DNA of 43,862 bases from a virus (Duplodnaviria; Heunggongvirae; Uroviricota; Caudoviricetes), in the IMG/VR virus record IMGVR_UViG_2541047828_000009, positions 1 through 43,862 of that record. The stretch is one strand, 5' to 3'. Made by a program: the position numbers and the translations under genes. The notes under the pieces were generated by a model. It made no database searches. It was given only the letters and a program-made list of their open reading frames with translations, and was not told where the DNA came from. Shown here in pieces: positions 6,584-8,991 of the stretch (its first letter is position 1; each line of letters opens with the position of its first letter).

Positions 6584-6835
6584 GATGTTCTCCACTATTG
6601 CTGAGTGAACTTCGCTGGTGGTGCCGTGACGCTGATCTTCACAGTTGAGCGTTTTAACTCTGCAATTCACCACCGCGAAGCTCACTTCTGTGTTTGCCCT
6701 TGTCGCCAGGCTGGCGGAACGTTTCAAACCTACTGCGCGTTAATATCACCACCTCATTCCGGTTTTCGTATGCCCCGGACGGCTACTTCGTGGGCTCCAT
6801 GCCTGGGTGGTTCGTGGTGCGTCTTGGTGATTGCA

Positions 6836-6864
6836 TATTAAGCCTGAGACTTAAATCATGTCAA
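6836..6864 (-). promoter_or_regulatory. pL-like early-left promoter
   Basis: On the minus strand TTGACA, 17-nt spacer, TTAATA; an operator palindrome overlaps the spacer and -10. Confidence 0.5.
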
Positions 6865-6901
6865 GCTCCAGGCGAAATGTGATTGTAAGTTTCAGGCTTA
6901 A
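6838..6901. promoter_or_regulatory. Left operator cluster (OL-like): two 17-bp TTAAG-N7-CTTAA palindromes
   Basis: ttaagcctgagacttaa (6838-6854) and gtaagtttcaggcttaa (6885-6901); the same motif recurs at the right operator. Confidence 0.7.
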
Positions 6902-7005
6902 TCGTGATGTTCACCGAATTGCAGGCAAAAAAAATCCCGACGCTAAGGTCGAGATCGGGGACTTCGTGGCTGGGTGTTGGCGGCTGAGATGGTGGGTGAG
7001 GGTGT

Positions 7006-7034
7006 AAAAAACCGGCGCTGTGGCCGGGTTTTTT
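7006..7034. terminator. Bidirectional rho-independent terminator
   Basis: aaaaaa-CCGGC-gctgtg-GCCGG-gtttttt; A-run on one side and T-run on the other; sits just past the end of the immunity cargo operon. Confidence 0.7.
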
Positions 7035-7036
7035 CA

Positions 7037-7141
7037 TTACTGCTGGTTAAATCCTTTCGGCGAGTGCTGCTGTTCTTTATTACCAAATTTTTGATTTACA
7101 ATGATTTTATAAGCGTTATTGAGAGCTTGCTTTATAGACAT
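7037..7141 (-). CDS. Small ORF (34 aa) downstream of the AT-rich cargo gene
   Basis: Hand translation MSIKQALNNAYKIIVNQKFGNKEQQHSPKGFNQQ; strong AAGGAG RBS 6 nt before the ATG; 17 nt after the stop of the 434-aa gene; followed by the terminator. Confidence 0.4.
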   Translation of the reverse strand: MSIKQALNNAYKIIVNQKFGNKEQQHSPKGFNQQ

Positions 7142-7158
7142 TAATATCTCCTTATGTG

Positions 7159-8463
7159 TTATTGACGATTAAAGTAGTTAGAGTTTAGCTCTTTAGGGAA
7201 GTAGTGTTTACGATTTACCCAAACAAATCCATCAACTTTTGATATCACAGCGACATCAACAGGCCCACCGACAGTTTCATAATCATGTGATACTTTTCTT
7301 TTGAATGCAGTGATGTTCACTAATGATTCGGCCATATACGCAAGATCTGCCTTCCCAAGTGATTGCAACATCGATATCATTTTATTTGTATGGTTATTAA
7401 CAATATAGCTTTCAAGTTTAGTATCGTGATCTTGTAAAAGTACGTTTTTGAGTTCCTCAATTTCACTGGAGAAGTGATTGGCTAGTACTCCATTGTTCAT
7501 TGCAGGGAAAATATTGCTAGAAACATAATGATTAAGCCGATCAAAAACTTCCTCTGTAAGAGTTCTGTTAAAATTAATGATGTTAGGGTTGCACCCATCA
7601 ATGAAAGTTACTACTTCATCTTCTTGAGCAAATGGTATAACAAACCCCATATTGGTTACCTCATTATGGGATTTATCATCAATATTATGGATCATCAATT
7701 TGTTTTTAAAAATGCCGTAGATATGAAGAGTGCAAATGGAAGGGTAATATTCTTCCTCTCCATAACCTGTTATAACAATCCCTGAATATGTACGACTAGC
7801 ATGGACTTTGAAAATTAAACAAGTGGAATATAATATGACTTTTTCCATAAGCTCTTGCTGTATATTTTCACAGTTATCAAGAACAATAATTGATGAAATG
7901 TATGGCGATATTAAATCTTGTATATATGCTAAAGCATCATTAAACTCTTCTGTATCAAACCCTTCGAAAAAGAGATTATTCCTTAAGATTCCTATCTCTA
8001 AATCAAAGGCTTGCTTAACTATGTTTTGAAAAATAACATTGTCGAGTTCAACGGCGGGGTTCATTGTTAAATAGTTTACTACATTATTATCATTAATGTA
8101 TCTCATCAAACCTTTGAGGTTATCAACAACAAGGTTTATAACGCAAGCCTCTCTCATTTCATTTGTTATAAGGTCTGAGTTACCATTGATGAATTTTACA
8201 AAGTCATTAACATATTCTTTAATGGTAGGGAAACTAGTTTTCCCCAATTGTTTTCTATAGGATTTAATTATAAGTTCCCACGGTGCGCCACCCAGTGTCG
8301 CATTATTATAAATCATGATCCCCACGGGATGGTGTTTAGATAGTTCGAATAGTTTTTCCGCACTATTATTTATTTTTACTAATCTATTATGCTCTGTGGT
8401 GACTGCAGAGTCAGCAGCAAGGGCGATTCCAGTATTATTTATTACAACAATCTCAGCTGTCAT
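7159..8463 (-). CDS. AT-rich hypothetical protein (434 aa), candidate superinfection-exclusion or abortive-infection factor
   Basis: Start chosen at ATG 8463 (MTAEIVVINNTGIALAADSAVT); an in-frame ATGATG at 8562 would give the 467-aa track ORF; codon usage conspicuously AT-rich versus flanks; co-oriented immediately downstream of the repressor. Confidence 0.7.
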   Translation of the reverse strand: MTAEIVVINNTGIALAADSAVTTEHNRLVKINNSAEKLFELSKHHPVGIMIYNNATLGGAPWELIIKSYRKQLGKTSFPTIKEYVNDFVKFINGNSDLITNEMREACVINLVVDNLKGLMRYINDNNVVNYLTMNPAVELDNVIFQNIVKQAFDLEIGILRNNLFFEGFDTEEFNDALAYIQDLISPYISSIIVLDNCENIQQELMEKVILYSTCLIFKVHASRTYSGIVITGYGEEEYYPSICTLHIYGIFKNKLMIHNIDDKSHNEVTNMGFVIPFAQEDEVVTFIDGCNPNIINFNRTLTEEVFDRLNHYVSSNIFPAMNNGVLANHFSSEIEELKNVLLQDHDTKLESYIVNNHTNKMISMLQSLGKADLAYMAESLVNITAFKRKVSHDYETVGGPVDVAVISKVDGFVWVNRKHYFPKELNSNYFNRQ

Positions 8464-8604
8464 TGCAAAACATCCCGTGTAGTAGTGATAAATATTAATT
8501 AAATTGATAGTTTTTTTCAATCTAACATAAATGGCGGAATCACCCCCCAGTAAAGACATCATTGTCTCATGGGAACTAAAAATTCAGGACAAACCTAAAG
8601 CGAT

Positions 8605-8991
8605 TCAGTCCCCCTGCGAGCGAATCCGCCCCTTCATGTACTTCTCATACAGCTCATCCAGTTCCTTAAGACGTATCGAAAAGATGCGGAGCATGTTCTG
8701 TTGCTCTTCTTCTGGCAGCTGGCGGTAGAGCTCAAGCAGGCGCTGTTCGTCCGGCTTAAGTCCGTCCTTCTCGCCGACATCCTCACCGAGTAACCAAGGC
8801 ACAGACACGCCAGCTGCGTCAGCGACAGCGAGAGCTGATTTCTTGCTGATCACGCCTTTTTTAAACCAGCCGTTCACAGACTGCGGGGTTACCCCAGCAA
8901 CCCTGGCCATATCGGATTTGGTCATACCGCGCCCGTTCAGCTCTGAAAGGCGTTCGACAAGTATCGGATTAAGTACGGTTTTCTCTTTCAT
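8605..8991 (-). CDS. Prophage repressor, XRE-type HTH (cI functional analogue), 128 aa
   Basis: HTH segment MTKSDMARVAGVTPQSVNGWFKKG; divergent from the cro-like gene across an operator cluster; no SD before the ATG (leaderless-like, as for lambda cI from pRM); no C-terminal S24 peptidase domain. Confidence 0.8.
   Translation of the reverse strand: MKEKTVLNPILVERLSELNGRGMTKSDMARVAGVTPQSVNGWFKKGVISKKSALAVADAAGVSVPWLLGEDVGEKDGLKPDEQRLLELYRQLPEEEQQNMLRIFSIRLKELDELYEKYMKGRIRSQGD

What the first reader, a model, noticed from the sequence alone, without database searches (positions are those of the whole stretch)
7037..7141. Unannotated 34-aa ORF with a strong RBS after the cargo gene
MSIKQALNNAYKIIVNQKFGNKEQQHSPKGFNQQ is below the ORF-track cutoff. 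It has an AAGGAG 6 nt upstream, starts 17 nt after the cargo-gene stop, and is followed by the terminator. A small partner like this could be a modulator or antitoxin-like component of a two-gene system.
Basis: seen in the sequence. Interest (0 to 1): 0.45.

Follow-up and report, generated by a model that had tools for sequence, protein, structure and literature searches.

The report
Microprotein partner of a proteasome-like enzyme
The 34-codon reading frame is a real, conserved small-protein gene that travels with an uncharacterised proteasome-like enzyme as a two-gene unit carried by prophages, phages and satellites, a pairing the paper that catalogued these enzymes said it could not find.

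Summary
The ORF is under strong purifying selection: pN/pS is 0.06-0.16 between close relatives, and it is the only one of six frames without stops. It recurs, with a Shine-Dalgarno site and a terminator, after homologues of the 434-aa gene down to 42% identity.

In 103 of 104 loci from bacteria, archaea, phages and satellites, a same-strand ORF follows this gene. It is 34-82 aa in nearly all and starts within about 45 nt of the stop. A profile of the commonest type hits only that position among 11,040 ORFs. No third gene is conserved.

Here the pair sits co-oriented behind the prophage repressor in a variable cargo slot.

The two-gene-system reading is supported. The antitoxin or modulator role remains untested. 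My best guess is a bound regulatory subunit, made of an amphipathic helix plus an aromatic C-terminal tail. Interest 0.6.

The parts
7037..7141 (-). 34-aa microprotein gene (MSIKQALNNAYKIIVNQKFGNKEQQHSPKGFNQQ). Residues 3-18 are a predicted amphipathic helix and 19-34 a polar disordered tail with Phe31 four residues from the end.
   Evidence: Sequence. Nine distinct orthologues with motif M[ST]xxQxxxNAY[KR]x6[KH]F. pN/pS 0.06-0.16 for close pairs, and the only stop-free frame. AF2 helix 3-18, pLDDT 84-88.
7148..7153 (-). Shine-Dalgarno AAGGAG, 6 nt upstream of the microprotein ATG.
   Evidence: Duplex energy with the anti-SD is -9.3 kcal/mol, against -4.4 for the large gene. The small gene's SD is the stronger in 8 of 10 related loci.
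7159..8463 (-). 434-aa proteasome-beta-like Ntn (Thr1) hydrolase. The core is split by helical insertions at about residues 101-218 and 293-368. It matches phrog_5990 and is probably the PMI-4 family.
8492..8520 (-). Sigma-70-like promoter (TTGAAA, 17 nt, TAATAT) about 30 nt upstream of the large gene's ATG, inside the low-GC island.
   Evidence: Consensus scan only, 9 of 12 positions. Function is inferred.
7006..7027 (-). Intrinsic terminator (stem 7027-7012, T-run 7011-7006) that closes the two-gene transcript. An A-run upstream makes it look bidirectional.
   Evidence: Similar CCCGGC...GCCGGG-TTTT hairpins follow the small ORF in Klebsiella, Serratia, Pantoea and metagenomic relatives.
6933..6956 (-). 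Second terminator-like hairpin. Together with the first it separates the repressor-cargo transcript from the kil/recET early-left genes.
   Evidence: The region 6916-7034 is the conserved flank shared with sibling prophages that carry other cargo.
7035..8560 (.). Low-GC (30-37%) cargo island in a backbone of about 50-55% GC. It holds exactly the promoter, the hydrolase gene and the microprotein gene.
   Evidence: Composition. Present in 13 of 5426 complete E. coli genomes. The same slot holds HicAB and other genes in sibling prophages.
8605..8991 (-). Context: the prophage HTH (cI/RacR-like) repressor gene, directly upstream of the pair and co-oriented with it.
   Evidence: HTH_3 at E 1e-6. 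PHROG transcriptional regulator. RefSeq annotation.

Best explanation
The 34-codon ORF is a translated microprotein gene and the cognate partner of the upstream 434-aa gene.

The 434-aa gene encodes a proteasome-beta-like N-terminal-threonine hydrolase with two large helical insertions. It is probably the PMI-4 family, whose function is unknown.

The two genes form a self-contained module of promoter, enzyme, microprotein and terminator. The module moves horizontally and is carried as accessory cargo by prophages, phages and phage satellites. Here it sits co-oriented behind the repressor of a Rac-like prophage.

Shown:
- The ORF is coding and under purifying selection.
- Its synteny with the enzyme is near-universal and tight, and partner type is co-inherited with the enzyme.
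- The enzyme's fold and catalytic residues are established.
- No third partner gene is conserved.

Inferred:
- The pair is expressed in the lysogen, because of where it sits.
- The microprotein binds the enzyme through its N-terminal amphipathic helix (residues 3-18).
- Its disordered tail with a near-C-terminal aromatic residue (Phe31) docks in a pocket or in the substrate cleft.
- In this way it acts as a regulatory subunit that gates or restrains the Thr1 active site until a trigger arrives.
- The likely biological role is prophage-conferred exclusion or abortive infection of other phages.

My probabilities:
- real gene and cognate partner, about 0.9
- physically binds and regulates the enzyme, about 0.5
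- the module is an anti-phage or exclusion system, about 0.35

The single confidence figure given for this explanation (0.55) refers to the whole chain up to 'binds and regulates'.
For: Coding:
- In codons 2-20, window versus the 80%-identity relative gives 10.5 synonymous and 2.5 non-synonymous differences (pS 0.95, pN 0.05).
- Five other close pairs give ratios of 0.11-0.16.
- Summed over 8 pairs, the sense frame gives 0.13 with no stops. The other five frames give 0.28-2.3 with 7-28 stops.

Synteny:
- Nine distinct 34-37-aa orthologues, each with an SD and a terminator, follow large-protein homologues of 80-42% identity.
- 103 of 104 loci have a same-strand small ORF, 34-82 aa in nearly all, starting within about 45 nt of the stop. 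Among 92 distinct pairs, 45 overlap the large gene.
- A profile of the commonest partner type hits 42 ORFs among 11,040. All 42 are at that position.
- Partner type follows the large-protein phylogeny: 81 of 98 nearest neighbours share a type, against 25.6 +/- 4.5 in shuffles.
- No third gene is shared. At most 2 of 147 flanking ORFs share any Pfam family.

Enzyme:
- M1, T2, D18 and K37 are invariant.
- Homologues align from residue 1.

Regulatory reading:
- The small gene's SD is stronger than the enzyme's in 8 of 10 loci.
- The peptide is predicted as a helix plus a disordered tail.
- An aromatic residue lies 3-4 from the C-terminus in 11 of 14 distinct gammaproteobacterial partners, against 4 of 78 others.

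Mobile or accessory role:
- The module is a low-GC island.
- It occupies three different prophage hotspots: behind cI or the repressor, and between Q and the lysis genes.
- It occurs in phage and satellite genomes.
- Sibling prophages carry HicAB or other cargo in the same slot.
Against: - No direct evidence of binding, of toxicity, or of any phenotype.
- A complex prediction could not be run.
- The 34-aa form shows no detectable sequence homology to the 55-70-aa partners of most other lineages (hhalign probability 0.3%). The 'same partner everywhere' claim therefore rests on position for this lineage.
- One locus, Vibrio L014, has the enzyme followed directly by a terminator with no partner.
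- PADLOC models do not match either protein.
- Immediate neighbours in 80 genomes are mostly housekeeping or miscellaneous genes rather than defence genes.
- Whether the peptide activates, inhibits or is itself a substrate cannot be told from sequence.
- PMI-4 membership is inferred from described features, not from a sequence match.
Confidence: 0.55

Rival explanations
1. The microprotein is the enzyme's dedicated substrate rather than its regulator. The Thr1 hydrolase would cleave it, or, like the proteasome homologue connectase, ligate or transpeptidate it. The processed peptide would then be the active product: a signal, an effector or a labile antitoxin-like timer.
Against: No conserved candidate cleavage or ligation motif is shared between the partner types. 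The partners diverge in sequence and length much more than would be expected for a recognition sequence read by a highly conserved active site. Nothing was tested biochemically.
Confidence: 0.2
2. The microprotein is an activator or assembly factor. It would supply in trans a C-terminal aromatic tail that docks between enzyme subunits. This would resemble the HslU C-terminal tail (EDLSRFIL, Phe441) switching on HslV, or HbYX tails opening the proteasome.
For: An aromatic residue lies 3-4 from the C-terminus in 11 of 14 distinct gammaproteobacterial partners, against 4 of 78 others. The HslU octapeptide alone activates HslV, and Phe441 is strictly conserved (PMC4106860). No AAA+ partner accompanies this family (PMC8665760).
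Against: In the window the aromatic residue is at -4, not -3. Three of the 14 lack it, and the majority partner type has no such tail. The resemblance is a motif-level lead, not a test. The enzyme's oligomeric state is unknown, and its insertions may preclude rings (PMC8665760).
Confidence: 0.2
3. The pair is a classical type II toxin-antitoxin module. The large protein would be a growth-arresting toxin and the 34-mer a labile antitoxin that also autoregulates the operon.
For: It is a compact, mobile two-gene unit. The small partner has the stronger SD. The same prophage slot holds HicAB in a sibling prophage. The context is prophages and satellites, and Streptococcus satellite Javan421 also carries RelBE.
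Against: The 34-mer has no DNA-binding domain and no family hit. The order is large gene first. No toxicity data exist. A locus with the enzyme alone exists (L014), which a potent toxin would not tolerate unless it were inactivated.
Confidence: 0.12
4. The ORF is a chance reading frame or a non-coding element, such as part of the 3' UTR or terminator region, and is not translated. Alternatively, the conservation belongs to an antisense gene, like the 128-aa minus-strand ORF that gene callers place over it in Klebsiella.
For: It is very short. RefSeq does not annotate it. An antisense ORF is called over it in Klebsiella contigs.
Against: Synonymous sites are saturated while the peptide is conserved. 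Only the sense frame is stop-free across relatives. The SD is consistently strong. There is no Rfam match. The antisense ORF would have to run through the terminator hairpin and is not conserved in E. coli.
Confidence: 0.03

Closest known systems
PMI-4 ('Proteasome homolog with Multiple Insertions 4') and the other new proteasome homologues of Fuchs, Alva and Lupas 2021 (PMC8665760); PHROG family phrog_5990
   Same: The large protein has a proteasome-beta core and a Thr1/Asp17/Lys33-type triad, and no propeptide. It carries long insertions after H1/H2 and between H3/H4. It occurs across nearly all bacterial phyla, Euryarchaeota and phages, and its function is unknown (paper sections 3.2-3.3).
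   Different: [quoted passage not shown] Here a small ORF is found directly downstream in 103 of 104 loci. Identity with PMI-4 could not be checked by sequence, because the representative HDY66466.1 is not retrievable with these tools.
HslVU, and HbYX-type proteasome activators
   Same: In both, a Thr1 proteasome-family peptidase has its activity controlled by a partner. The partner's tail has an aromatic residue near the C-terminus, as in HslU ...RFIL, where the octapeptide alone activates HslV (PMC4106860).
   Different: The partner here is a 34-aa microprotein, not an AAA+ unfoldase, and no AAA+ gene is linked. The aromatic residue is at -4 here. The enzyme carries about 200 residues of helical insertions. 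Binding is untested.
Connectase (archaeal proteasome homologue, protein ligase)
   Different: Connectase lacks H1/H2, is monomeric and is restricted to methanogens, and its substrate MtrA is not encoded next to it as a microprotein. No ligase evidence exists here.
Lambda rexAB and P22/Rac sieB-type prophage exclusion genes; type II TA modules such as HicAB in the same slot
   Same: All are accessory modules placed behind the repressor and co-oriented with it, with low GC and different cargo in sibling prophages. Lysogen expression is inferred from that position.
   Different: There is no sequence or fold relationship. The effector here is a proteasome-like hydrolase. No exclusion or toxicity phenotype is known.

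Membership tests
Proteasome-like (peptidase T1 / Ntn) superfamily | Four-layer alpha-beta-beta-alpha proteasome-beta core fold | tested here: met
Proteasome-like (peptidase T1 / Ntn) superfamily | Catalytic Thr1 exposed at the N-terminus, plus Asp17 and Lys33 | tested here: met
   M1, T2, D18 and K37 are invariant in 32 diverse homologues. Longer database entries all contain an internal MTAEI start. Most of the listed hits align from residue 1. Mapping K37 onto Lys33 rests on the shared 'KLF' context and on my own knowledge of the T. acidophilum sequence.
PMI-4 subfamily (Fuchs et al. 2021) | Long insertions after H1/H2 and between H3/H4; no propeptide; distribution across most bacterial phyla, Euryarchaeota and phages | tested here: met
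   The insertions lie at about residues 101-218 and 293-368. Distribution. Paper sections 3.2-3.3 and Table 1. PMI-3 shares the insertion sites but is rare and narrowly distributed.
PMI-4 subfamily (Fuchs et al. 2021) | Sequence clustering with the PMI-4 representative HDY66466.1 | not testable with these tools
   The accession cannot be fetched, and the paper's supplement holds no sequences.
Type II toxin-antitoxin system | Antitoxin with a DNA-binding or autoregulatory domain, usually encoded first | tested here: not met
   The 34-aa peptide is one helix plus a tail. It has no Pfam, PHROG or NCBIfam hit, and it is encoded second.
Type II toxin-antitoxin system | Toxicity of the large protein, neutralised by binding of the small one | not testable with these tools
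   This needs expression experiments.
Known anti-phage defence systems (PADLOC-DB v2.0.0) | Match of either protein to a defence-system model | tested here: not met
   No hit up to E = 1 for either protein. The flanking genes show only scattered methyltransferase and restriction hits.
HslUV-type activation | Linked AAA+ unfoldase partner | tested here: not met
   No family is shared by more than 2 of 147 flanking ORFs. The same conclusion is reached in PMC8665760.
HslUV-type activation | Conserved aromatic residue near the partner's C-terminus that docks into the peptidase | tested here: inconclusive
   F or Y lies at -3 or -4 in 11 of 14 distinct gammaproteobacterial partners, against 4 of 78 others. 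In the window it is at -4. The major partner type lacks it. Docking is untested.
Prophage immunity-region exclusion modules (rexAB / sieB-like) | Located next to the repressor and co-oriented with it, in a variable slot | tested here: met
   behind the repressor; alternative cargo in the same slot.
Prophage immunity-region exclusion modules (rexAB / sieB-like) | Homology to RexA/RexB/SieB, or an exclusion phenotype | tested here: not met
   No Pfam or PHROG match to those families. The phenotype is not testable here.

The most novel reading that the evidence does not exclude
A widespread family of proteasome-like Thr1 enzymes in bacteria, archaea and their viruses (about 5000 clusters at 50% identity) works only as a two-component system with an obligate, fast-evolving microprotein subunit. 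This subunit has been overlooked because it is short and often unannotated. On prophages, phages and satellites the pair would be a new kind of anti-phage or exclusion system. In it, the microprotein holds a proteasome-type protease in check, or targets it, until infection.
Probability: 0.3. Interest if true: 0.8.

Novelty: new variant of a known kind. Interest (0 to 1): 0.6.

Why it matters
Proteasome-family enzymes are normally controlled by large ATPase caps. The many new prokaryotic homologues described in 2021 have no known function or partners.

A conserved microprotein encoded right behind one of the largest of these families gives the first concrete handle on how such an enzyme is regulated, or on what it acts upon.

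Carriage of the pair in prophage immunity regions, lysis-cassette hotspots and phage satellites points to a testable role in phage-phage or phage-host conflict.

It also shows how the length cut-offs used in annotation hide the second component of two-gene systems.

Tried and rejected
Only the 34-mer alone could be folded.
- hhalign of the short form against the major 55-70-aa partner type found no detectable homology. I therefore do not claim that they are homologous.
- Pfam, NCBIfam and PADLOC gave no match for either protein. Rfam found nothing in 6800-8700.
- A sequence search of the PDB gave only a weak match (E about 0.8) of the C-terminal GGPxDVAxxSKxDG motif to archaeal proteasome beta. 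Foldseek against the PDB and against viral structures found no solved or closer structure. The afdb50 library was unavailable.
- A search for a conserved third gene or a defence-island context around 80 loci found none.
- A search for natural enzyme-microprotein fusions among the longer homologues found only mis-called N-terminal extensions.
- Literature searches for a function of this family, or for a proteasome-like anti-phage system, found nothing beyond the 2021 catalogue.
- The PHI family was considered for the large protein and set aside, because it has a single helical insertion and far fewer members. PMI-3 was set aside because it is rare and narrowly distributed.

Full report
**Observation**

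The ORF lies on the minus strand, from ATG 7141-7139 to TAA 7039-7037. It has 34 codons and reads MSIKQALNNAYKIIVNQKFGNKEQQHSPKGFNQQ.
- AAGGAG is at 7153-7148 with a 6-nt spacer.
- The upstream gene ends at TAA 7161-7159, 17 nt before the ATG.
- A GC-rich hairpin (7027-7012) plus a T-run (7011-7006) follows 9 nt after the stop.

**Setting**

The window starts with a Rac-like lambdoid E. coli prophage. Its left arm holds, in order:
- integrase (plus strand)
- RecT, RecE, YdaE and Kil (all minus strand)
- the pair studied here
- an HTH repressor (minus strand)
- YdaS/YdaT and replication genes O/P (plus strand)

The pair forms a low-GC island of 30-37% in a backbone of about 50-55% GC. It lies directly behind the repressor and is co-oriented with it.

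A sigma-70-like promoter sits in front of the pair at 8520-8492. Two terminators follow it, before a promoter-like site (6864-6835) and kil.

The island occurs in 13 of 5426 complete E. coli genomes. Sibling prophages with the same flanks carry HicAB plus other genes, or two unrelated hypothetical genes, in the same slot.

RefSeq does not annotate the small ORF. The exact peptide is nevertheless deposited elsewhere as 'hypothetical protein', on at least 1000 contigs.

**Is it a gene?**

Homologues of the large protein at 80, 70, 68, 49, 46, 46, 46 and 42% identity each carry a 34-37-aa ORF at the same place. They come from metagenomic contigs, Klebsiella, Serratia, Rahnella, Citrobacter and Pantoea. 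Each small ORF has a good Shine-Dalgarno site and a terminator, and shares the motif M[ST]xxQxxxNAY[KR]x6[KH]F.

Nei-Gojobori counts over codons 2-20 show saturated synonymous change with a conserved peptide:

| Comparison | Result |
|---|---|
| Window vs the 80% relative | 10.5 synonymous, 2.5 non-synonymous differences; pN/pS 0.06 |
| Five other close pairs | pN/pS 0.11-0.16 |
| Sense frame, 8 pairs summed | ratio 0.13, no stop codons |
| The other five frames | ratio 0.28-2.3, 7-28 stops |

This also rules out the antisense ORF that gene callers place there in Klebsiella. No Rfam family matches the region.

**What is the large gene?**

It has no Pfam, NCBIfam or PADLOC match. It matches phrog_5990 (unknown function) over its full length.

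The family is large: 4962 clusters at 50% identity at E <= 1e-3. It is found in nearly every bacterial phylum and in several archaeal lineages.

M1, T2, D18 and K37 are invariant. Longer database entries are mis-called starts that contain an internal MTAEI. The 434-aa start at 8463, which exposes Thr after Met removal, is therefore right, and RefSeq's 467-aa start is probably wrong.

The core is split by helical insertions after H1/H2 (about residues 101-218) and between H3/H4 (about 293-368).

These features and the taxonomic spread fit 'PMI-4' of Fuchs, Alva and Lupas 2021 (PMC8665760). I could not verify this by sequence.

That paper states that no genomic context or co-occurrence pattern was found. 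I found no later work on the family.

**A general two-gene module**

I collected 104 loci from genomes, viral contigs, phage records and metagenome assemblies. In 103 of them a same-strand ORF, 34-82 aa in nearly all, starts within about 45 nt of the large gene's stop.
- Among 92 distinct pairs the median partner length is 61 aa and the median start is +2 nt from the stop. In 45 pairs the small ORF overlaps the large gene.
- The exception is Vibrio L014, where a terminator follows the large gene directly.
- Control: an ATG-plus-SD ORF of 34-120 aa near the stop is present after 53 of 80 family members, but after only 8 of 144 neighbouring genes.
- An iteratively built profile of the commonest partner type has a basic N-terminus, then [YF]xSxxE[FWY]Exx[FY][FL]P, then ...LGxxLAxExL.... 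It hits 42 ORFs among 11,040 six-frame ORFs, all at that position.
- Partner sequences fall into clade-specific types that follow the enzyme's phylogeny. The nearest enzyme neighbour shares the partner type in 81 of 98 cases, against 25.6 +/- 4.5 in shuffles.
- The 34-aa enterobacterial type shows no detectable homology to the major type. For that link I rely on position only.
- No third gene is conserved, and the flanks are heterogeneous.

**Mobile context**

The pair lies behind the repressor in E. coli and Klebsiella prophages.

It lies between the Q antiterminator and the lysis genes in Serratia and Citrobacter prophages and in Providencia phage PSTRCR_117lys. In that phage a 58-aa partner is annotated.

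It also occurs next to the lysis cassette of Stenotrophomonas phages, in a Porphyromonas phage, and in nine Streptococcus phage and satellite records.

**Mechanism**

The following points are shown:
- The enzyme keeps an intact Thr1 catalytic set.
- The partner is co-inherited with the enzyme and tightly coupled to it.
- The partner's SD is stronger than the enzyme's in 8 of 10 loci (-9.3 against -4.4 kcal/mol in the window).
- The 34-mer is predicted as an amphipathic helix (residues 3-18) plus a disordered polar tail.
- Gammaproteobacterial partners usually carry F or Y three or four residues from the C-terminus: 11 of 14 distinct peptides, against 4 of 78 others.

This last feature recalls the HslU tail EDLSRFIL, whose Phe441 docks between HslV subunits and activates them (PMC4106860). 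That is a lead, not a test.

I infer that the microprotein is a bound regulatory subunit that gates or restrains the active site. I also infer that on mobile elements the module serves exclusion or abortive infection.

The rivals are a dedicated substrate (cleaved or ligated, connectase-like), a trans-acting activator or assembly factor, and a classical toxin-antitoxin pair. None can be excluded without experiments. A chance or non-coding ORF is essentially excluded.

**Verdict**

The 'two-gene system' reading is supported. The 'antitoxin or modulator' reading is plausible but untested.

The enzyme family is known but uncharacterised. Its conserved microprotein partner appears to be unreported in the literature I could search.

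Noticed in passing
window 8463-8562 (minus strand): RefSeq annotates the large gene as 467 aa, starting at 8562. All homologues start at the internal MTAEI (ATG 8463), and Thr2 must be N-terminal for an Ntn hydrolase. The annotated start is therefore probably 33 codons too far upstream.
   Followed up: yes
window 6916-7034 and loci L105, L106: The slot between kil and the repressor holds variable cargo. Sibling prophages with the same flanks carry either HicA/HicB plus a 141-aa protein, a YoaK-like small membrane protein and an extra HTH gene, or two unrelated hypothetical genes.
   Followed up: partly
window 6835-6864 (minus strand) and 6584-7011: A near-consensus sigma-70 promoter (TTGACA, 18 nt, TAATAT) lies downstream of the two terminators and upstream of kil, in a roughly 430-nt stretch without an annotated gene. 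It is probably the early-left promoter and operator region of the prophage.
   Followed up: no
L083-L085 6292-6678 (minus strand of the locus): Gene callers place a 128-aa antisense ORF across the Klebsiella small ORF and its terminator hairpin. The frame analysis suggests this is a spurious call that masks the real microprotein gene.
   Followed up: partly
L014 5284-5330: Vibrio sp. J1-1 is the only locus where the proteasome-like gene is followed directly by a terminator with no small ORF. Either the partner has been lost naturally or the enzyme works alone there.
   Followed up: partly
L080 5262-5513 and L037 5316-5513: In two Chloroflexota loci the partner-like ORF overlaps the 3' end of the large gene by 55-160 nt in another frame, and the large ORF runs about 25-45 codons longer than usual. 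This could be a frameshift, programmed or an assembly error, or a different stop.
   Followed up: no
L098 (Streptococcus satellite phage Javan421) 3501-4900 and 6379-6862: Nine Streptococcus phage and satellite records carry the enzyme, seven of them satellites. In the one opened, Javan421, it is followed by an unannotated 55-aa partner and lies in the accessory end of the element, about 1.7 kb from a RelBE toxin-antitoxin pair.
   Followed up: partly
L096 3799-3975; L004, L010, L011: A third partner type is found in Providencia/Morganella, Alteromonas, Pseudidiomarina and Vibrio. It keeps a W/F-x-x-K-[FY]-x-P motif like the N-terminal half of the major type, and ends in an F/Y-x-x(-x) tail like the 34-aa type. 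It may be an evolutionary bridge between the two.
   Followed up: partly
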